Virus record (IMG/VR): IMGVR_UViG_3300032334_002236
Span: 22,914-86,913 of that record
Source: a virus
DNA: 64,000 bases
Strand: one strand, 5' to 3'
The notes beneath the pieces were generated by a model. That model ran no database searches. It worked only from the letters and a program-made list of their open reading frames with translations, and was not told where the DNA came from. The first letter of the stretch is position 1; every line of letters starts with the position of its first letter. The position numbers were made by a program, and so were the translations under genes. This document shows positions 42,136 through 50,000 of the stretch, one piece after another.

Positions 42136-43149
42136 ATGGCAAATTTATTCAAACGTGCGGCTGTGTTCACGGACCTTCATCTGGGTAACAAGAGCAACAG
42201 CCATCAGTTCCTGACCGATTGTGAAAATTATATCACATGGTTCCTGGATGTGGTCCAGACCAGGCAATGTGATTGCGTGATCTTCTTGGGTGATTTCCAT
42301 CACAATCGCAACAACATCAACATCCAGACCATGGATGCCAGTTTGAAGATACTGCAACAGCTGGACGATCTTGGCATGCCAGTGTATTTCATCACTGGTA
42401 ACCACGACCTATATCACAAAGACAAGCGCACAGTCAGCAGTGTCAAATATATACATAAATTCCAAAACATACAACTGATCAACGATCAGATCACCACAGG
42501 TGATGTCACGTTCGTGCCCTGGCTCATAGGTGAGGAATACAAGAACATGAAGCGTGTGAAGAGCCAGTATGTCATGGGACATTTCGAGCTGCCACATTTC
42601 AAGATGAATGCCATGGTGGAGATGCCAGATCATGGCGAGCTTAATTCCAGAGATTTTGACAATGTGGGCTTGGTGTTCTCAGGACACTTCCACAAGCGCC
42701 AGAAAAAGAGCAACATCCATTATATCGGTAATGCTTTTGCACACAATTATGCAGATGCATGGGACGATGATCGTGGTTGCATGGTACTGGAATGGGGTTC
42801 GGAACCAGAATACCTGAACTGGCCTGGTGCTCCCAGATATCGCACACTCACGCTGGCACAGATGTTGGATCAACCAGATGTACACCTGGATCATCGCACA
42901 CATGCTCGTGTACAGTTGGATATCAGCATCAGCTATGAGGAAGCCACGTTCATTAAAGAAGAGATGCAAAAGAATTATAATGTGCGTGAACTCAGCTTGA
43001 TCCAACACAAGAATGAGACTCTGTTGGAAACTGGCATACAGGATGTCATGTTCGAGAGCGTGGATCAGATTGTCATGAGCCAGATACAGAACTTAGACAC
43101 CAAACATTATGATCAGCACCTGCTGATGGAAATTTACAATAGCTTGTGA
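42136..43149 (+). CDS. gp47: Recombination endonuclease subunit gp47 (Mre11/SbcD-like)
   Basis: Metallophosphoesterase motifs DLHLG, LGDFHH, GNHD, GHFE, SGHFH. Confidence 0.95.
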   Translation: MANLFKRAAVFTDLHLGNKSNSHQFLTDCENYITWFLDVVQTRQCDCVIFLGDFHHNRNNINIQTMDASLKILQQLDDLGMPVYFITGNHDLYHKDKRTVSSVKYIHKFQNIQLINDQITTGDVTFVPWLIGEEYKNMKRVKSQYVMGHFELPHFKMNAMVEMPDHGELNSRDFDNVGLVFSGHFHKRQKKSNIHYIGNAFAHNYADAWDDDRGCMVLEWGSEPEYLNWPGAPRYRTLTLAQMLDQPDVHLDHRTHARVQLDISISYEEATFIKEEMQKNYNVRELSLIQHKNETLLETGIQDVMFESVDQIVMSQIQNLDTKHYDQHLLMEIYNSL

Positions 43150-43166: not shown

Positions 43167-44939
43167 ATGCTTCAATTAAACACATTGACGGTCAAGAACT
43201 TCATGAGCGTGGGAAATGCCACACAAGCTGTGGATTTCAATCGCCGTGATCTCACTCTTGTGCTGGGAGAAAACTTGGACCTGGGTGGTGATGATACAGG
43301 TGCCCGTAACGGCACAGGAAAGACCACCATCATCAATGCTCTCAGTTATGCCTTGTATGGCCAAGCACTGACCAATATCAAGAAAGACAACCTGATCAAC
43401 AAGACCAACGGTCGCAACATGCTTGTGACCGTGGAATTCATCGTGAGCGGCAAGCAATATCGAATCGAGCGTGGGCGCAAGCCCAACGTGACCAAACTGT
43501 ACATCGACGGTAATGAACAGACCGAATATTCAGATAACAGCCAAGGCGACAGTCGTGAAACACAGCACGATATCGATCGTTTGTTGGGCATGAGCGTGGA
43601 CATGTTCCGCCATGTTGTGGCATTGAACACCTATACAGAACCATTCCTGGGCATGCGGACTAATGATCAGAGACAGATCATCGAACAGCTATTGGGCATC
43701 ACTATCCTGTCCGAAAAAGCAGACATGCTGAAAGACCAGATAAAGATCAGCAAAGAGATGATAAATGAAGAGCGTATCAGTATCAAAGCGCAACAGGATG
43801 CAAATACTCGCATTGCTGAACAGATAGAAAACCTCAGGAAACGCCAGAGATTATGGCTGGCCAAACGAGAAGAAGATTGTGTCAATCTGGAACGTGGCTT
43901 GAGAGATCTGGCCGACGTGGATATCGATACTGAGATCGAGAACCATCGCATCCTTGCTGATTACCATGATCGCAAAAAGAGGAAAGCTGATGCGGAAAAA
44001 TGGATCAAAGCCATACAGCAGGATAAGATTAAGGAAGAAAGAAACCAGGCCAAGCTGGAAAAAGAGATCGCTGATCTGGAAAACCACACATGCTATGCTT
44101 GCGGATCTGCGCTCCACGATCAAAAGCATGAACAAGTGCTTGCTGGAAAAGTCAAACAACACAGTGAGTCCGCCGCACAGCTCTTGGCACATGAGCATCA
44201 AGAACAAGAACACACCGACGTGATCGCACAAATCGGCGATATAGGTGATATGCCTAATGTGATCTATGACACACTGGAACTGGCATTGAACCATCGTAAC
44301 ACGCTGGAACAGATGATGGACCAGCTGGACAAACGCCAGGAAGAAGACGATCCGTATGCCGAGCAGATCACAGACATGGAGACAACTGCACTGGCTGAGA
44401 TCACATGGGACCAGGTCAACAGCCTCACACAGGTGCAAGAGCACCAGGAATTCCTGCTCAAGATGCTGACCAACAAGGACAGTTTCGTACGCAAGAAGAT
44501 CATAGATCAGAACCTGGCTTACCTGAACAGCCGTCTGGGCAGCTACCTGTCAGCTATCGGCTTGCCACATGAGGTCAAGTTCCAGAACGATCTTACTGTG
44601 GAGATCACAGAGCTGGGTCGTGAACTGGACTTTGACAACCTGAGCCGTGGCGAACGCAACCGTCTGATACTATCACTCAGCTGGGCATTCCGTGATGTAT
44701 GGGAGAGCTTGTACATGCCCATCAACCTGTTGTTCATCGACGAATTGATCGACTCAGGCATGGATGCATCAGGTGTGGAGAACAGCTTGGCTATCCTCAA
44801 ACGCATGGCACGTGACAGGAACAAGAGCATCTTCCTGGTCAGCCACCGTGACGAACTGGGTGGCAGGGTCAACAATACGTTAATTGTAACAAAGGAAAAT
44901 GGTTTCACGAGTTACGGATCTGATACGGAAATGGTATAA
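43167..44939 (+). CDS. gp46: Recombination ATPase subunit gp46 (Rad50/SbcC-like)
   Basis: KNFMS, Walker A NGTGKTT, zinc hook CYAC, signature LSRGE, Walker B LLFIDE, SHR. Confidence 0.95.
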   Translation: MLQLNTLTVKNFMSVGNATQAVDFNRRDLTLVLGENLDLGGDDTGARNGTGKTTIINALSYALYGQALTNIKKDNLINKTNGRNMLVTVEFIVSGKQYRIERGRKPNVTKLYIDGNEQTEYSDNSQGDSRETQHDIDRLLGMSVDMFRHVVALNTYTEPFLGMRTNDQRQIIEQLLGITILSEKADMLKDQIKISKEMINEERISIKAQQDANTRIAEQIENLRKRQRLWLAKREEDCVNLERGLRDLADVDIDTEIENHRILADYHDRKKRKADAEKWIKAIQQDKIKEERNQAKLEKEIADLENHTCYACGSALHDQKHEQVLAGKVKQHSESAAQLLAHEHQEQEHTDVIAQIGDIGDMPNVIYDTLELALNHRNTLEQMMDQLDKRQEEDDPYAEQITDMETTALAEITWDQVNSLTQVQEHQEFLLKMLTNKDSFVRKKIIDQNLAYLNSRLGSYLSAIGLPHEVKFQNDLTVEITELGRELDFDNLSRGERNRLILSLSWAFRDVWESLYMPINLLFIDELIDSGMDASGVENSLAILKRMARDRNKSIFLVSHRDELGGRVNNTLIVTKENGFTSYGSDTEMV

Positions 44940-44940
44940 T
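44932..44940 (+). promoter_or_regulatory. Extended -10 promoter TGGTATAAT (leaderless)
   Basis: 6 nt before ATG 44947; overlaps the gp46 stop. Confidence 0.6.
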
Positions 44941-44946
44941 TACTGT

Positions 44947-45468
44947 ATGCCAAGTCCAAGTAAGAACAAAGGAAATAGCTGGGAACGTGACGTTGCCAAG
45001 GATCTAACCAATCTGTATGGTGAATCATTCATCCGAGCTCCTGGCTCAGGTGCATATGTGGGTGGAACCAATGCCCATCGTAAGCAGGTATTGCATGAGG
45101 GACAGATCAGGAGTTTCAAAGGCGACATCATTCCTGGCCAGAGTTTTCCCAGGCTTAATATCGAAGCAAAGAGTTACAAAGACTTTCCATTCCATCAATT
45201 CTTCACAGGCACAGTACTACAACTTGAAACTTGGCTCACACAATTGGCAGCATCGGCAGACCCAGGCGACGTTAACTTACTCATAATGAAATTCAACCGC
45301 AAAGGCAAGTTTGTAGCTTTCAATTTTGACGAAGACAGAGCTTATCCTATATTTGTGGAACGGCATTTCCTATACACCAGCGAAAAACTAGGCACTTGGG
45401 CATTCATGGGTTACGAAGCATTCTGGCGTTTGAATGCGGACGGCATCAGGCATTTATCGGCTGCATAG
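44947..45468 (+). CDS. PD-(D/E)xK nuclease, Hjc-like Holliday junction resolvase
   Basis: SKNKGNSWERDVA...R...SGA...GDII...IEAKSY. Start reassigned to ATG 44947. Confidence 0.8.
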   Translation: MPSPSKNKGNSWERDVAKDLTNLYGESFIRAPGSGAYVGGTNAHRKQVLHEGQIRSFKGDIIPGQSFPRLNIEAKSYKDFPFHQFFTGTVLQLETWLTQLAASADPGDVNLLIMKFNRKGKFVAFNFDEDRAYPIFVERHFLYTSEKLGTWAFMGYEAFWRLNADGIRHLSAA

Positions 45469-45501
45469 GCAAATCATAGTCCCCTATATGAACTACCAAT
45501 C

Positions 45502-45802
45502 TGAAGGTTGCTGACACCCCGACATTGTCAGGACAGGGACACCGCACGGCCACGCGATAGGCTAAATGATGACAGCTCTGAGAAAAAGCAACTGTCTGGT
45601 AACTGACTCAGTCACACTGGGGTAAAGTTGCTTCCGTTGGATCAGCAGGATTAAAGGGGTACAGGCCAACCGCCCCGCTAGTAACATAGTTCCGCAGTGT
45701 AGATATGATTGAGAGACTCACCGAACGTTCTCATCAGCTGGTCCTGTGATCAGGATCAGTATGACCTCAAGGTCTACCGAAACATTCCAAGATAAACCTT
45801 CA
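45502..45802 (+). ncRNA. Candidate ~300-nt structured non-coding RNA of unknown family
   Basis: No ORF. Long-range 8-bp closing helix TGAAGGTT/AACCTTCA enclosing about eight hairpins; G-U pairs favour the plus strand. Confidence 0.55.
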
Positions 45803-45817
45803 AGAGAATTAAAAAAA

Positions 45818-45861
45818 AGTTAACGAACGAAGTGAAGTTAACTGCTTGCTGCCAAGCAAGC
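45818..45861. other. Twin hairpins after an A-tract (convergent terminator or ssDNA signal)
   Basis: AGTTAAC..ACGAAGT..GTTAACT and GCTTGCT-GCCA-AGCAAGC. Confidence 0.5.
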
Positions 45862-45899
45862 CTGAAGATGAGCACACAAGGATAAATGGCAAGCTGTGA

Positions 45900-46118
45900 T
45901 CAGAAGTAGGGTAATCCTGATTTCTTGGTCACTTCCAAGTTCTCTTTTATTATCTTGCTGATCATTTCCCGCTCATCACTACTCAGCAACATGGCATCCT
46001 CATATGTGACACCACCTCGCATGTTCCAACTCATCTGTAGTGCGGTATATTTGAGACTCTTGACTTGACCTTCCATGCTATTGACCATACCGATTATCTG
46101 CTCGGTGGTCATGGTCAA
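45900..46118 (-). CDS. gp51-like assembly protein; probably the -1 frameshift extension of the upstream gene
   Basis: ~70 aa, W.MRGGVTYEDAMLLS..ERE; no RBS; lies in the -1 frame of the slippery site at 46130-46139. Confidence 0.7.
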   Translation of the reverse strand: MTMTTEQIIGMVNSMEGQVKSLKYTALQMSWNMRGGVTYEDAMLLSSDEREMISKIIKENLEVTKKSGLPYF

Positions 46119-46963
46119 GAGCCGACTGCGAAAAAATTTGAGTAATCGAACTCCAATGCTAGATCATATACATGGGCACATTCGGTGCATTCCAATCTCA
46201 TCTTGGGTAACTTGGCATCTTCGTTGAATTTTTCCATCTGTTTCTGTATGCGACGGATCATCTGTCCAGGTGCATTGTTGTAATATTCCAGGATATATTC
46301 TGGATCGTCCACCTCAAGTCCATCGCTAGTCATGATATTCTGGGTACTAGTGGCCAACAAGCTCATGTTGAGATCTACCAGGTTTGTCAAGTAGGTATTA
46401 TATCTCTTTACTTTCTCATCTTCAGCCAAGCTATCATCTGTCACTGTGGCTAAGATGCGTTGTTCCTCGAATAGGATACGATTGCGACGATTCACATCGA
46501 AATACTTCTGTGGTTTCAGTTTGATCTTGATATCGGTATCAGTCACCAATTCTGTATAATCAGGTGATCGCACATTAGCCAATGCGTAGTTGAGATCCAC
46601 TGCATGGGTGTTTTCTGCTTCACATGCAGGGCATTTGCTATCCACATCCATGTCTTGACCGTAACTGGCGATCCTAATAGCTATCAGTACAGCATCCACA
46701 TCTATGCTAGGCATCTCCCAGGCATTGATGATGTCAGGGCAGCAGTTCTGGATCACTTTAACCACACCTTCACCATTCATCAGTGCATCAGGGGTGCGGA
46801 TGATGATTTCTTCCCTGGTAGTCATGGGATATACTGCCACTTCTCCGCTGCCTGTGAGATTGATGCTACCAGCTGGCCAATAGTTTCCAGAGCTTGGTAG
46901 TTTCAGATACAAAGCAGGTTGCCTGAAATGTTTGATTAGGGGATTACTTGATTGATTATCCAT
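46115..46963 (-). CDS. gp26: gp26-like baseplate hub / tail assembly chaperone
   Basis: LKLPS.G...V.VYPMT.REE...D.DA.LIAIRIASYG, CPAC and CTEC motifs, ends DYSNFF. Start reassigned to ATG 46963. Confidence 0.8.
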   Translation of the reverse strand: MDNQSSNPLIKHFRQPALYLKLPSSGNYWPAGSINLTGSGEVAVYPMTTREEIIIRTPDALMNGEGVVKVIQNCCPDIINAWEMPSIDVDAVLIAIRIASYGQDMDVDSKCPACEAENTHAVDLNYALANVRSPDYTELVTDTDIKIKLKPQKYFDVNRRNRILFEEQRILATVTDDSLAEDEKVKRYNTYLTNLVDLNMSLLATSTQNIMTSDGLEVDDPEYILEYYNNAPGQMIRRIQKQMEKFNEDAKLPKMRLECTECAHVYDLALEFDYSNFFAVGS

Positions 46964-46979
46964 GTGGTTTTCTGGTTCC

Positions 46980-47001
46980 ATAAATATGTACAGATATTTA
47001 T
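46980..47001. promoter_or_regulatory. Face-to-face pair of late promoters
   Basis: ATAAATA on plus at 46980-46986 (tape measure) and ATAAATA on minus at 47001-46995 (gp26-like). Confidence 0.65.
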
Positions 47002-47011
47002 TGGTTGAAAA

Positions 47012-50000
47012 ATGAACCCTCAAGATTTACAGAATCTGTTAGACACACTGAAACAATTCAGCGACAAGCTGGGTACCATCGCTGACGACATCAAGACCAA
47101 TGCCAATAACACGCAAGCCCAGGTAAATCAAAATAATACCAAAATTTCACGTAGCTGGTCCGAGCTGGGTGAAGCCACGAAAAAATTGTCAAAACGTCTG
47201 GACGAAAATGAAAAATCTGCACAAAAGAATGAGGACAGCCAAAAACGCACATACAAGCAACAAGACGACGCAGTAAAGTTCTTCTCCCGGGGTATCAGGC
47301 AGAGCACCACAGAATTCAGTAAAAACTTACAGACTGGCAAGATAAGCCTGAATGAGTTTCGTGATCAGATCAACAGTGCCAAGGATGATATAAAAAACGA
47401 ACAGAATCTCAAAGTCCAGCAAAAACAAGAGCTGATGCGTGAGATCGAAGCCCTGGATAAGAATGTTCAAAGGCAAGCCAAATATGGATTTGCCACAGAT
47501 CTGGCTGGTAAAGCATTGGGCCAGTTGGGCAAGGCAGCTGGTGTTGTAGGCGGAGCCACGTTAGATGTGGTACGTTCCTACCAGAATTCCAGTAGCCAGA
47601 TAGGAATCAGCACCGCTGCTATGTCAGCTGGGGTAAACCTGGCTGGTACTGGGCTCAGCATGGTGGGCGATAGTGCTAGCATTGCTGGCGGTATGCTAAC
47701 CGCGTTCAGTAGAGGACCATGGACAAAAGGTCTTGGTGTAGCCCTCCAAGTTGCAGGGTTTGGTGCTTCTTTTGCTGGTAAATCCATTACAGAACTGGGA
47801 AAAGTAGTACTCCCCATTCTCAACACTGAGATGGAAAAACAGATACAGAGCTTCCAGGCTCTGAGCAATATCGGTGCCATATTTGCAAATGGCGTGGATG
47901 GTATGAGAAAGGCAAGCATAGAAGCTGGCATGGATCTGGGCATGTTGAGTAACGTGTTCAAGACCAACACAGAACAGTTTGCAAATAGTGGTTTAGGTAT
48001 GACTGCTGTCATGGAAAGGTTTGCTGGTGCCCGTAGCAGGAGCATAGCTGATGGATTCCAGAAACAGTTGTTGAACCTGGGTTACAGCGTGGAACAACAG
48101 GGTGGGCTCATGGCTCAGGTGTTCCAACAACTGGGCAGGTCAGGTAAAGCACAGACTGCTACCAGTGAAGAAATAGCCAAACAGACTCTGGAATATGGCA
48201 AGACTCTCAAAGTCATAACAGAATTGACTGGCGCTGACGCTGCTAAACGCATGCAGGAAGCTGGTCGCCAGATGCAAGAAGTGCAGATAGCTTCCAAGAT
48301 TCGTGAGATGGAAGCAAAAAATCCTGGAGCTGAAAAAAGGATACAAGCTATATTAGCCACTGTGCCTGACGAATTAAAGCTGGGAGTCAAACAAAAATTA
48401 GTATTGGGGCAAGTGGTAGACCAAACCACCAATGAGATGATCAGCCAATCACCTAAAATGGGACAAGCAATGGACACCATTGTTGGTGCGATGTATGATT
48501 CCTCTCTTGATGCTAAATCAGGAGCAGCATTAACTGTTAAGACATTGAGTGCTGCTAGAGATCAACTGGCAAAGGATCTAGAGGCTATGGGTACTGCTCA
48601 ATTAGCAGATCCCATGTCATTCACAGCACCGGCTGTTGAAAAAGCAAATAAGATCATAGCACAAACACAATCTTTTGCTGATAAGTTAACTGCAGATGGT
48701 GCACCTAAACGCACAGAAGACGCAGCTAAGACAGAAAACAAAGCCACTGCTGCTATGAATAACGTGATCGAAAACAACATCAAGATGGCCATGAAGATCC
48801 AGGAATTGATATTGGACACAGACATCATGGGCAAATATGCCAAGGCTATGACTAATCTCACTGATACTGTGATAGAACAGATATCAAAATTCGGTGGCAA
48901 GTCTAAACCAGAAAACGAAAACGACAAATCTGAAGCAGCAAAGATAGGAGGTGCAACAGTAGCCTATGGCGTACCAGCAGCTACCTCAATAGCTGGTGCA
49001 GTAGCTGGTGAAGCAATAGGTAAAGAAGTAATCAAGCAGATAGTCAAACGAGGAATTACAGCAACCACAACTGTTGCTGGAGGAGTTGCAGGAACAGGGG
49101 CTATGCCTGGTCCAGGTTCAATTGCAGGTGCAATTGCTGGTGGGATCTTGGGAGAAAAACTAGGTGAAGCTATCGTTGACAGTGACGTCGGGGAAATACT
49201 AATAACTGCTGGTGAGAAAGTAGGACAAATAGTAGAAGCTTCGGTAGAGATTGCCAAAGCTGGGTTCAATAGCATAATAGGCATGTTCAAGAACGCACCA
49301 CATGCCAAACAAGGAGGGATCATTAACAGTGATGTGTCTGGCAGCATTGCCATGCTGCATGGCACTGAAGCAGTATTACCGCTGGATGATGCCAGCATCA
49401 TGACTAAATTGCGCAATAGCCTGATGCCAGAAGCTGGTAATGCTAACCAACTAAGTGGTGTCTCTGAAATCTTAAAAAATATGCAAGACAATAACAGCAA
49501 CATATTGAAACAAGTCTACAAGGAAAGCGGTACAGAATCTTATATCATGATGAGATCCCTTCTACAAATGCAACCATCTACTGGTCACATTACTAATGAT
49601 TTAATAACAGATGCTATCACAAAACTGAATGATCAGGGATCTATCAGTATAGAGACCAATAATCAGATCAAACAGCTTAATGATACTACTAAAATTACGG
49701 CTAGAGATCAACTTATATCAGATCTACGTAATAATAAGGAAGATCCTTTAAGATTTACAGCAGACTCACCGTATTTTGCAAAATACAACGAGGCTATCTC
49801 AGGTAAACAAAAACAACCGGAAAATTTCAATACAGAAGATATTTTTGGTGATCGTATAACCAAAATCAACACGCAGTTGCAGGGCGGTTTCCTTAATATA
49901 AATGACACCATTAGTAAGATACCAAAGACTGTGACTAACCAAAGAGAAAACGTCTTTGATTCAGAAATAGGTCCTGCTAAAGAAAAGACAGGAATTGTTA

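What the first reader, a model, noticed from the sequence alone, without database searches (positions are those of the whole stretch)
45469..45810. Candidate novel ~300-nt structured RNA downstream of the recombination genes
Seen: the largest ORF-free gap in a densely coded window. TGAAGGTT (45502-09) pairs with AACCTTCA (45795-802). It encloses CTGACA/TGTCAG (45511-31), GACAG/CTGTC with an A-rich loop (45571-96), GGTAACT/AGTTGCT with an inner hairpin (45598-632), GGGGT/GCCCC (45656-76), CTA-GTAACA-TAG (45678-89), TGAGAG/TTCTCA (45710-33), a 9-bp CTGGTCCTG/CAGGATCAG (45738-59) and GACC/GGTC (45763-74). Loop CCAAC could pair with GTTGG (45636-40) as a pseudoknot, and ACCGAA occurs twice. G-U pairs favour the plus strand. 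I do not recognise tRNA, tmRNA, RNase P or intron signatures. Inference: an undescribed phage ncRNA (ribozyme, RNP scaffold for the adjacent nuclease, or R-loop origin primer).
Basis: partly seen in the sequence, partly recalled or inferred. Interest (0 to 1): 0.78.

Follow-up and report, generated by a model that had tools for sequence, protein, structure and literature searches.

The report
Twin-box knotted RNA gene of phages
The gene-free gap behind a small nuclease gene of this uncultured lake giant phage is a real gene for an intricately folded RNA of about 400 bases; more than a hundred related phages keep it, it carries the same short word twice, and its job is still unknown.

Summary
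The gap 45469-45899 is ORF-free. It holds a conserved plus-strand element of about 400 nt (about 45466-45865). A single-sequence fold is no better than shuffles (z -0.80), but comparison settles the matter. The element was found in 30 of 80 loci fetched through the upstream PDDEXK protein, and in 117 of 120 loci fetched through a 20-nt motif. On 68 sequences, 86.8% of cells pair against 77.2% in shuffles (0 of 500 shuffles as high), and 68 of 92 pairs change on both sides. Two pseudoknots and a long-range helix are among the pairs counted. G-U cells outnumber A-C cells 708 to 94, so the plus strand is the RNA strand. No family in Rfam 15 matched. ARAGORN found no tRNA or tmRNA. No complement turned up in cis or in the flanks. 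This scan has already reported the family at least eight times on other DNA. Function is unknown. My best guess is a dual display of one short recognition word, and it is weakly supported.

The parts
44899..45468 (+). Upstream neighbour: PDDEXK_15 nuclease gene ('RusA-like resolvase' in PHROGs), 189 aa. Its TAG stop codon (45466-68) is the start of the conserved word TAGGCAA.
   Evidence: (PF24608, E 3e-26).
45466..45499 (+). 5' leader of the element: conserved TAGGCAA word, then a small hairpin P0 (TAGT 45477-80 with ACTA 45492-95 in the window).
   Evidence: Upstream stretches of the first 40 of 87 unique sequences were printed. By eye, P0 changes on both sides among relatives (CTGAGT/ACTCAG, CCAGT/ACTGG, TTGGAT/ATCCAA). 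It was not counted with the count of structure pairs.
45502..45506 (+). 5' strand of the long-range helix LR (TGAAG; UUGAG in most relatives). It pairs with CTCA 45717-20, that is, the letters just before box 1 plus its first letter.
   Evidence: helix 2: 90.7% paired. The pair that includes box position 1 reads UA 34, UG 18, CG 8. In the window the helix needs a bulged A (read).
45511..45531 (+). Hairpin P2 (CTGACA / TGTCAG).
   Evidence: helix 3: 6 of 6 pairs changed on both sides, 76.6% paired (the MAFFT register is poor for the window's clade).
45571..45596 (+). Hairpin H4 (GACAG/CTGTC) with an inner 2-bp stem and the conserved loop GAGAAAAAG.
   Evidence: helices 1-2; (top mutual-information pairs 45572/45595 and 45573/45594).
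45598..45632 (+). Long hairpin H5 (GGTAACT/AGTTGCT plus GACTCAG/CTGGGGT). Its loop (about 45612-17) forms pseudoknot PK2 with about 45697-45700.
   Evidence: helix 3 (12 of 14 pairs changed on both sides). PK2: helix 9 (5 of 5 pairs changed on both sides, 81.3% paired). The window's own PK2 pairing (ACAC with GTGT) is read.
45636..45676 (+). Most conserved core: pseudoknot PK1 (GTTGG 45636-40 with CCAAC 45666-70) through the loop of hairpin H10 (GGGG 45656-59 / CCCC 45673-76). The linker 45639-45 (GGATCAG) repeats the 3' strand of H12.
   Evidence: helices 4 and 6. CM R1 hit at 45566-45698, 70.8 bits, E 2.9e-12. Linker copy.
45720..45726 (+). Box 1 (ACCGAAC), preceded by CTC and set in the loop of stem TGAGAG/TTCTCA (45710-33).
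45738..45759 (+). Hairpin H12 between the boxes (CTGGTCCTG / CAGGATCAG). Its 5' strand can pair with the PK1 linker instead.
   Evidence: helix 16; the linker holds a 4-7-nt copy of the H12 3' strand in 13 of 13 distinct H12 types.
45776..45782 (+). Box 2 (ACCGAAA), preceded by TCT. It is identical to box 1 in its first six letters and lies 56 nt downstream.
45811..45842 (.). A-run (45811-18) followed by hairpin H13 (GTTAAC 45819-24 / GTTAAC 45837-42). On the plus strand it is a conserved hairpin with a tandem G-A and small-loop core. On the minus strand it reads as a hairpin followed by a T-run, so it looks like the terminator of the convergent baseplate-hub genes.
   Evidence: helices 17-18 (8 of 8 pairs changed on both sides). 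The consensus scan did not call it, so the terminator reading is inference.
45844..45861 (+). Last hairpin H14 (GCTTGCT / AGCAAGC); probable 3' end of the RNA.
   Evidence: pair types at 45846/60 are TA 26, CG 22; at 45849/57 they are GC 26, AT 11, CG 11.
45900..47023 (-). Convergent neighbours: a 72-aa ORF and the baseplate-hub (gp26-like) gene.
   Evidence: among motif-found loci with at least 1.5 kb of room downstream, the hub lies downstream on the opposite strand in 85 of 91 and the 72-aa ORF in 79 of 91.

Best explanation
SHOWN. Window positions about 45466-45865 (plus strand) are a gene for a structured non-coding RNA of roughly 400 nt. It belongs to an uncatalogued family of uncultured giant T4-like lake phages, which earlier reports of this scan call the 'twin-box knotted RNA'. 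The fold has about a dozen helices and two pseudoknots: PK1 (a strand upstream pairs with the loop of the near-invariant GGGGUAC..ACCGCCCC hairpin) and PK2 (the loop of H5 pairs with a strand about 85 nt downstream). A long-range helix (LR) ties the 5' domain to the letters just before box 1. Two boxes of 6-7 nt lie 48-61 nt apart on either side of hairpin H12. They stay identical to each other while the word itself changes between phages. A second duplicated word gives the 5' strand of H12 two alternative partners: its own hairpin strand or the PK1 linker.

INFERRED (about 1 chance in 3). The 5' domain holds the stretches just before box 1 (CUC with GAG) and just before box 2 (UCU with RGA) on either side of hairpin P2. 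The two identical words would then be presented side by side as single strands. They would read the same complementary sequence twice on a partner nucleic acid made elsewhere, either two copies of one site or a two-fold symmetric target. The H12/linker toggle would act as the switch. The RNA is probably made on the same transcript as the small nuclease gene 0-50 nt upstream. It may or may not work with that nuclease.

The confidence figure below is for the whole statement. That the element is a real structured RNA of this family I put at above 0.9.
For: - Conservation: the element is in 30 of 80 loci found through the PDDEXK protein and in 117 of 120 loci found through a 20-nt motif. It always reads the same way as the model and lies in mostly ORF-free stretches.
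- Structure, core: 93.8% of cells paired against 83.1% shuffled (0 of 500 shuffles as high); 28 of 41 pairs changed on both sides; slid controls 38-51%.
- Structure, full length: 86.8% against 77.2% (0 of 500); 68 of 92 pairs changed on both sides; slid controls 34-50%.
- Strand: 708 G-U against 94 A-C cells.
- Window membership: CM R1 scores 70.8 bits, E 2.9e-12, the only hit in the window.
- Boxes: the first six letters are identical in 68 of 68 sequences and seven letters in 62 of 68. There are 15 different 7-letter words.
- Boxes on a tree built without the box columns: at least 14 changes at position 1, 10 at position 5 and 25 of the 6-letter word. In 6 of 6 independent supported pairs both boxes changed the same way.
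- Anchoring of box 1: helix LR, with UA 34, UG 18, CG 8 at the pair that holds box position 1.
- Toggle: the linker holds a 4-7-nt copy of the H12 3' strand in 13 of 13 H12 types.
- Weak sign of RNA: one metatranscriptome contig (170 nt, depth 3.3) covers 45475-45601 of a close relative.
Against: - No partner was found. There is no cis complement within about 150 nt on either side. No third column covaries with the box columns (best MI 0.12-0.26).
- Complements in 700,660 bases of flanks number 43, against about 43 expected.
- Inverted-repeat targets in five large contigs are no more frequent than the reversed control pattern.
- The anchor before box 2 (GGA with UCU) shows no change on both sides (helix 4), so the side-by-side picture rests on one proven anchor.
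- A partner containing U would tolerate A or G, yet mixed boxes are never seen. A simple trans-pairing model therefore needs three sites to change together.
- The single sequence folds no better than shuffles.
- Transcription is not shown: the RNA-library contig could be DNA carry-over.
Confidence: 0.35

Rival explanations
1. Two-site processing. The two identical boxes are the two cut sites, or cut-and-join sites, of one enzyme or ribozyme active site. This would release the roughly 55-nt box-hairpin-box piece as a small RNA, or splice it out and leave a single box.
For: The boxes flank a covarying hairpin at a narrow spacing of 48-61 nt in 86 sequences. The H12/linker alternative pairing fits an RNA that rearranges between two steps. 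A small nuclease gene lies directly upstream in at least 72 of 89 loci.
Against: No internal guide complementary to the boxes exists. A protein that reads the word would have had to change specificity at least 25 times on the tree. The contigs laid on the window show no joint between the boxes. The only joint, 45585 to 45654 in one DNA contig, lies elsewhere. Contigs drop rare forms, so this is weak evidence.
Confidence: 0.15
2. Guide RNA of the upstream nuclease. The RNA forms a particle with the small PDDEXK (here) or minimal GIY-YIG nuclease, which lack a DNA-binding domain of their own. The twin words would aim a nuclease dimer at DNA.
For: The gene directly upstream, on the same strand and 14-50 nt away in most loci, is a 142-158-aa protein that is a SegE-type GIY-YIG domain alone in 59 of 89 loci, and PDDEXK_15 in 13 of 89. 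Here the stop codon of the PDDEXK gene lies inside the conserved 5' word.
Against: Two unrelated folds hold the same position. That is what free-standing homing nucleases do beside any conserved gene. PDDEXK_15 loci with other synteny have no RNA behind the gene (L005-L025, L034). The GIY-YIG protein is common in cultured T4-like cyanophages and others (499 records). In 3 of 3 of those records that I checked, other genes follow it and the CM finds nothing. No target was found. The RNA is tied more closely to the convergent hub genes (85 of 91) than to the PDDEXK protein (15 of 89).
Confidence: 0.12
3. Template with repeat-guided strand transfer. As in DRT2 non-coding RNA, telomerase RNA or coronavirus TRS sites, a polymerase copies the stretch between the boxes. 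The new strand's end, complementary to box 1, then re-pairs at box 2. This would demand identical boxes without any third sequence.
For: It is the only mechanism considered here that needs identity as such and no complement anywhere, which is what searches show. Helix LR, directly 5' of box 1, could serve as a template boundary.
Against: No reverse transcriptase (PF00078) was found in 0 of 5 large contigs that carry the RNA, one of them a complete 346,856-bp genome. The same search rang in 3 of 14 control genomes. Head-to-tail copies of the unit give an open frame in 10 of 86 sequences on either strand, fewer than the 17-18% of shuffles. Only 20 of 86 unit lengths are multiples of three.
Confidence: 0.07
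4. DNA-level element. The region would be a replication origin, iterons or a recombination site at the border of the recombination and baseplate modules, with the boxes as twin protein-binding sites. The hairpins would be DNA structures or merely terminators of the convergent operons.
For: The position lies between converging gene blocks. An A-run plus hairpin reads as a minus-strand terminator. Direct repeats flanking a hairpin resemble iterons.
Against: G-U cells outnumber A-C cells 708 to 94, which is strand-specific and means nothing in duplex DNA. Two pseudoknots and a long-range helix covary. About 400 nt of conservation far exceeds a terminator. A binding protein would need at least 25 specificity changes.
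Confidence: 0.05

Closest known systems
Large ornate orphan RNAs of bacteria and phages: GOLLD (RF01998), ROOL (RF03087), and HEARO (RF02033, the RNA that, from recall, proved to be the IscB guide RNA)
   Same: Several hundred nucleotides, many helices and pseudoknots, strong covariation, found in phages or mobile DNA, and no job known at discovery. HEARO also sits next to a small nuclease gene.
   Different: No sequence or structure match to any Rfam 15 family. The neighbours here are PDDEXK or GIY-YIG, not HNH or RuvC. No such family is known to me (recall) to carry two short words held identical.
Methylobacterium-1 RNA motif (RF01712), named as closest by earlier reports of this scan
   Same: An orphan structured motif. 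Earlier agents reported a distant likeness to the middle part of other family members.
   Different: Not reproduced here. It gave no match in the window at the gathering score, none at E up to 10 over 45300-46100, none in the window's 86.9-kb record and none in two further RNA-bearing contigs at E up to 10. A fourth contig gave one 13.9-bit hit whose position relative to its RNA I could not place. The same search gave sub-threshold hits in 5 of 14 control genomes.
DRT2 non-coding RNA, telomerase RNA, coronavirus leader/body TRS (from recall of the literature; no paper on these was read here)
   Same: Short identical words at both ends of a copied stretch, identical because a newly made strand must re-pair. 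There is a helix next to the 5' word, and pseudoknots in the same RNA.
   Different: No reverse transcriptase in the phage genomes checked. No endless reading frame. No evidence of any copying.
IS110 bridge RNA / seekRNA and TIGR-type dual-guide RNAs (from recall)
   Same: One structured RNA presents two short recognition segments in separate loops.
   Different: In those systems the two segments differ, because they read two different strands or sites, and a dedicated recombinase or Nop-domain protein is encoded beside them. Here the segments are identical and no such protein is nearby.

Membership tests
Twin-box knotted phage RNA (uncatalogued; the name comes from earlier reports of this scan) | Conserved core with pseudoknot PK1 through the GGUAC..ACCGCC hairpin loop | tested here: met
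   CM R1 built from 68 relatives hits window 45566-45698 at 70.8 bits, E 2.9e-12. PK1 is 98.3% paired, with 3 of 6 pairs changed on both sides. In the window GTTGG 45636-40 pairs with CCAAC 45666-70.
Twin-box knotted phage RNA | Two short boxes, identical to each other, about 50-60 nt apart and flanking a hairpin | tested here: met
   Window: ACCGAAC 45720-26 and ACCGAAA 45776-82, so 6 of 7 letters are the same. Family: the first six letters are identical in 68 of 68 sequences. Spacing is 48-61 nt in 86 sequences.
Twin-box knotted phage RNA | Second pseudoknot and long-range helix ('doubly knotted') | tested here: met
   PK2: 5 of 5 pairs changed on both sides. LR: 90.7% paired. In the window itself PK2 is only 3-4 bp and LR needs a bulge.
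Rfam Methylobacterium-1 (RF01712) | Covariance-model score at or above the gathering score of 40 bits | tested here: not met
   No match in the window or its record.
Any Rfam 15 family, including GOLLD, ROOL, HEARO, RNase P, 6S, group I/II introns and the small ribozymes | cmscan match at the gathering score | tested here: not met
   0 matches in the 64-kb window. Nothing in the core at E up to 10. 0 matches at E up to 1 in 7 related loci.
tRNA / tmRNA | ARAGORN call | tested here: not met
   0 genes in the window.
DRT2-like template RNA | Reverse transcriptase encoded with the RNA | tested here: not met
   PF00078 was found in 0 of 5 RNA-bearing contigs, one of them a complete genome. The neighbours are PDDEXK or GIY-YIG.
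DRT2-like template RNA | Head-to-tail copies of the unit give a stop-free reading frame | tested here: not met
   10 of 86 on either strand, against 17-18% of shuffles.
Guide RNA of an RNA-guided nuclease (omega RNA / reRNA type) | Constant association with one nuclease family, and a target complementary to the variable segment | tested here: inconclusive
   A nuclease gene lies upstream in at least 72 of 89 loci, but it is of two unrelated folds. No target was found in flanks or large contigs. Host genomes were not searched.
Self-cleaving or self-splicing ribozyme | Catalytic activity | not testable with these tools
   Needs an in-vitro transcript assay.

The most novel reading that the evidence does not exclude
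The family works by a principle not yet described for natural RNAs: two copies of one short, freely evolving word are held side by side on a knotted scaffold. The requirement is that the two words be the same, not that they complement anything in the RNA. This could be a programmable dual reader of a repeated or two-fold symmetric nucleic-acid target, possibly arming the small domain-only nuclease encoded just upstream. It could equally be a strand-transfer device that uses a polymerase other than a reverse transcriptase.
Probability: 0.3. Interest if true: 0.9.

Novelty: categorically new. Interest (0 to 1): 0.8.

Why it matters
Large, intricately folded RNAs without a known job are rare. Past examples turned out to be ribozymes or the guides of new nuclease families.

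This one is widespread. It sits at a fixed place in giant T4-like lake phages, usually right behind a nuclease gene that is a catalytic domain alone.

Its most unusual trait is the pair of boxes. The word changed at least 25 times on the tree, both copies always together, and nothing complementary was found. Ordinary base-pairing models do not predict this.

Working out the trait could reveal a new way for RNA to recognise or copy nucleic acid. It would also give a function to a conserved gene of abundant environmental phages. The practical obstacle is that no cultured phage clearly carries the RNA.

Tried and rejected
**Catalogues and known RNA classes**
- Rfam at gathering and at loose thresholds and RF01712 tested directly gave nothing.
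- ARAGORN found nothing.

**Deposited phage records**
- blastn of the gap and of a consensus-like member against 50,697 deposited phage records gave no match.
- CM R1 was run on six cultured phage genomes: PA5oct, Phosso, SCTP-2, S-SSM7, Melnitz and phiN3.
- The only result was a 14-bit hit (E 0.69) in PA5oct, between its resolvase and baseplate-hub genes.
- That PA5oct stretch shares the GCTCTGGTAGAAAAAGATCAAC word. It is not one of the four ncRNAs listed in Table 1 of PMC7318152, of which I read passages.
- I treat this hit as a lead only.

**Bacterial genomes**
119 matched the motif only.
- One locus (L310) carries the whole element together with phage GIY-YIG, 72-aa and hub genes. It is therefore a phage contig inside a bacterial assembly.
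- I did not reproduce the earlier reports' claim of 'bacterial mobile elements'.

**Coding readings**
- No conserved ORF lies in the element.
- I considered a ribosome-hop reading, because many boxes read RGA followed by TGA or TAA. I rejected it for three reasons:
  - the short frame upstream is not kept (one extra base in the L027 group);
  - box 2 would stop translation at once;
  - the window's clade has no stop there.

**Search for a partner of the boxes**
- The searches were the cis complement, mutual information, the flanks, and the window against its 76%-identical relative L002.
- In the L002 comparison, no site where TTCGGT in the window faces TTCGTT in L002 lies within the shared 4.7 kb.
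- Inverted repeats were searched in five large contigs.
- All of these were negative.

**Other points**
- (open frames in concatemers) used a faulty position filter and is superseded.
- Promoters: neither TATAAATA nor TATAAAT was found in the 90 nt upstream in any of 87 sequences. TATAAT was found in 7 of 87. The consensus scan gave no more sites than shuffles.
- Helix H14 scored 38.6% paired only because my reference row was out of register. Recounted on another row, it covaries.
- In the window's own row of A3, P2, H5 and H12 are out of register. The window's helices are therefore read directly.
- Sequencing runs: 20 rows were listed. I laid four of them, all as contigs, so no transcript ends or expression levels can be read.
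- Literature: three full-text searches found no description of this RNA.
- For PMC10690425 I saw passages only. They mention candidate RNAs upstream of resolvase and RusA genes.
- For 10.64898/2026.09.22.753630 I saw only the abstract and outline; it is not relevant.
Full report
**What is at the locus.** The window is part of an 86.9-kb IMG/VR contig that CheckV rates 25% complete.

The genes around the finding, are:
- an SbcD-like gene (42136-43149, +);
- an SbcC-like gene (43167-44939, +);
- a 189-aa PDDEXK_15 nuclease (44899-45468, +; PF24608, E 3e-26; PHROGs name it 'RusA-like resolvase');
- a 431-nt gap;
- a 72-aa ORF (45900-46118, -) and a baseplate-hub gene (46115-47023, -), which converge on the gap.

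Nothing longer than 41 aa can be read in the gap. The nearest cultured relatives of both flanking proteins are giant phages at 28-44% identity. They include Salicola SCTP-2, Pseudomonas PA5oct, Sinorhizobium Phosso, Agrobacterium Atu_ph07 and the RaK2 group.

**First tests.**
- Rfam 15 gave no match in the window at gathering scores.
- At E up to 10 over 45300-46100 it gave only seven chance-level matches, none in the core.
- ARAGORN found no tRNA or tmRNA.
The minus strand gives z +0.90.

**Relatives.** A search of viral contigs with the PDDEXK protein returned 80 loci out of 214 relatives.
- nhmmer seeded with the gap sequence, iterated three times, found the gap conserved in 30 of the 80. 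It was always on the strand of the nuclease gene and in stretches that are mostly ORF-free.
117 of them carry the whole element.
- 99 hits were full length, giving 86 unique sequences, or 87 with the window.
- Conservation runs from about 45494 to 45865.
- A further conserved 5' leader starts at the stop codon of the upstream gene. It consists of the word TAGGCAA and a small hairpin.

**Structure.** Mutual information on my own MAFFT alignment put Watson-Crick covariation at the top of the list.

I then counted pairs on two alignments made with the tools.
- Core alignment A2 (68 sequences, 41 pairs). 93.8% of cells pair against 83.1% in shuffles (0 of 500 as high). 28 pairs change on both sides, and slid controls give 38-51%.
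- Full-length alignment A3 (68 sequences, 92 pairs in 19 helices). 86.8% against 77.2% (0 of 500). 68 pairs change on both sides, and slid controls give 34-50%.
- Helix H14 scored badly in that count only because my reference row was out of register. Recounted, it covaries.

There is a second pseudoknot, between the loop of H5 and a strand about 85 nt downstream (5 of 5 pairs changed on both sides). There is also a long-range helix between UUGAG in the 5' domain and CUC plus the first two letters of box 1 (90.7% paired; UA 34, UG 18, CG 8 at one pair).

G-U cells outnumber A-C cells 708 to 94, so the RNA strand is the plus strand.

The proposed outer closing helix (45502-09 with 45795-802) exists in the window but, by eye, not in relatives.

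A covariance model of the core (R1, 145 positions) hits the window once, at 45566-45698, with 70.8 bits and E 2.9e-12. It hits the same 30 of 80 loci as nhmmer.

**The twin boxes.** Among the strongest mutual-information signals were pairs of columns that are identical rather than complementary. In the window these are 45720/45776, 45724/45780, 45726/45782 and 45728/45784.

They belong to a 6-7-nt word that follows CUC (box 1) and recurs after UCU (box 2), 48-61 nt downstream. Hairpin H12 lies between the two copies.

On A3 the first six letters of the boxes are identical in 68 of 68 sequences, and seven letters in 62 of 68. Fifteen different 7-letter words occur: AGATGAT 19, GGATAAT 13, GGATGAT 11, AGATAAT 9, and rarer ones such as GTCGGAA, AACAAAA and the window's ACCGAAC.

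On a tree built without the box columns:
- position 1 changes at least 14 times;
- position 5 changes at least 10 times;
- the 6-letter word changes at least 25 times;
- in 6 of 6 independent pairs on supported branches, both boxes changed the same way (sign test p 0.03).

**Search for a partner of the boxes.**
- No segment within about 150 nt on either side can pair with the word at a consistent place.
- No third column covaries with the box columns.
- In 700,660 bases of flanking DNA from 80 loci, the exact complement occurs 43 times against about 43 expected. Same-sense copies occur 74 times, which I put down to coding bias.
- The window and its close relative L002, whose word differs at one letter, share 4.7 kb with no matching complementary change.
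- Inverted repeats of the word in five large contigs are as frequent as a reversed control pattern.

The identity of the boxes is therefore not explained by any cis partner or any nearby partner.

**A second duplicated word.** The linker inside PK1 always contains a 4-7-nt copy of the 3' strand of H12. Examples are GGATCAG in the window and GTGAA, GCAAA, GCGAA, CAAG, AATCTA and CAAAG elsewhere. This holds for 13 of 13 distinct H12 types, with a mean shared length of 5.2 against 3.3 for cross-pairings.

The 5' strand of H12 can therefore pair either with its hairpin partner or with the core. The two pairings exclude each other, which points to a switch. This is an inference from sequence. I could not count it on A3 because the linker is not aligned in register.

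**Neighbours.** In the loci found by motif, which do not depend on the protein query:
- the baseplate-hub gene lies downstream on the opposite strand in 85 of 91 loci with room, and the 72-aa ORF in 79 of 91;
- a PDDEXK homologue lies upstream in only 15 of 89.

The gene directly upstream falls into one cluster of 59 (142-158 aa). Two members tested are a SegE-type GIY-YIG domain and nothing else (PF19835, E 9e-33 and 6e-32). A second cluster of 13 has two members tested, both PDDEXK_15. The smaller clusters are mostly without a Pfam match, and one of them matches a homing-endonuclease PHROG.

A small nuclease gene is therefore the usual upstream neighbour, but two unrelated folds fill that role.

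Both proteins also occur without the RNA.
- PDDEXK loci with other synteny lack it.
- The GIY-YIG protein is found in 499 deposited phage records, mostly cyanophages.
- In three of those records that I inspected, other genes follow it and the model finds nothing.

PDDEXK loci L041-L080 have a 450-780-nt gap at the same place that R1 does not hit. Those gaps hold their own repeated words at 52-66 nt spacing, for example GGCAATGT in L041 and L049. They probably hold a diverged sister family. I did not test this further.

**Expression.** Twenty public runs hold part of the stretch, and one of them is an RNA library. I laid four runs, all as contigs. The RNA library has one 170-nt contig (depth 3.3) over 45475-45601 of a close relative. 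This is a weak hint, because DNA carry-over cannot be excluded. No joint between the boxes was seen.

**Mechanisms weighed.**
- Template with strand transfer (as in DRT2 RNA, telomerase or coronavirus TRS) is the one mechanism that needs identical words and no complement. However, no reverse transcriptase is present in 0 of 5 large RNA-bearing contigs, one of them a complete 346,856-bp genome. Concatenated units are not open reading frames (10 of 86, below shuffles).
- A protein that reads the word would have had to change specificity at least 25 times.
- A DNA-level element is contradicted by the G-U asymmetry and by the pseudoknots.

My working model is a knotted scaffold that presents two copies of one word next to each other. 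Box 1 is anchored by helix LR. Box 2 is perhaps anchored by GGA with UCU, which never varies and so is unproven. The scaffold would read one complementary sequence twice on a partner made elsewhere, with the H12/linker toggle as a switch. I give this about one chance in three. It does not explain why mixed A/G boxes never occur if the partner could wobble.

**Known families.** No Rfam family matched. The Methylobacterium-1 motif named by earlier reports of this scan gave no match in the window or its record, and one noise-level hit in another contig. Three full-text searches found no paper describing this RNA. One survey of candidate viral RNAs (PMC10690425, passages read) may list it in supplements that I could not open.

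**Earlier reports of this scan.** The scan has reported the same family at least eight times on other DNA. I found the boxes before reading those notes. I have adopted their name for the family.

New relative to the summaries I could see:
- the count of upstream neighbours;
- the alternative pairing of H12;
- the reverse-transcriptase and concatemer tests;
- the failure to reproduce the Methylobacterium-1 link.

**Verdict.** This is a real, strongly structured, uncatalogued phage RNA with an unexplained identity constraint. Its function is unknown. Interest is high.

Noticed in passing
window 45811-45842: An A-run followed by the GTTAAC..GTTAAC hairpin reads, on the minus strand, as a hairpin plus T-run. 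It is probably the terminator of the convergent 72-aa and baseplate-hub genes, and it overlaps the 3' part of the RNA. The consensus scan did not call it.
   Followed up: partly
L041:4573-5313, L049, L050, L054, L056, L058, L060, L065 (gaps behind the PDDEXK gene): These loci have a 450-780-nt gap at the same place. Model R1 does not hit it, yet it holds its own repeated words 52-66 nt apart (for example GGCAATGT at L041:4882 and 4938; ATAGGGCA at L050:4822 and 4888). This is probably a diverged sister family of the same RNA.
   Followed up: partly
L325:1501-1681 (NC_071039.1 76338-76518, Pseudomonas phage PA5oct): A weak R1 hit (14.1 bits, E 0.69) lies between the resolvase and baseplate-hub genes of a cultured phage. 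It shares the GCTCTGGTAGAAAAAGATCAAC word and is overlapped by an annotated 39-aa ORF (gp338). It is not among the four ncRNAs published for PA5oct.
   Followed up: partly
L310 (contig of a Haliscomenobacter sp. assembly in genome contigs): This locus carries the whole RNA together with a phage GIY-YIG gene (89% identical to that of L094), the 72-aa ORF and the hub gene. It is a phage contig inside a bacterial assembly, which means either a hint at the host or binning contamination.
   Followed up: partly
L094:1116-1541 and 499 deposited phage records: The 142-aa protein that is a SegE-type GIY-YIG domain alone (PF19835) is labelled 'NAD synthetase' in phrog_447 and in many phage records. The label looks like an annotation error that has spread.
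   Followed up: no
window 45537-45592: In lake metagenome contigs this 56-nt stretch reaches a summed depth of 167-185, against 4-12 for its surroundings (run X3). Many different phages in those samples evidently share this most conserved part.
   Followed up: no
L005-L025, L034: These loci have the PDDEXK proteins most similar to the window's (61-71% identity) apart from the RNA-bearing L002-L004 and L010. They have different synteny, with plus-strand genes following directly, and no RNA within 4 kb. The RNA may lie elsewhere in those genomes or be absent.
   Followed up: no
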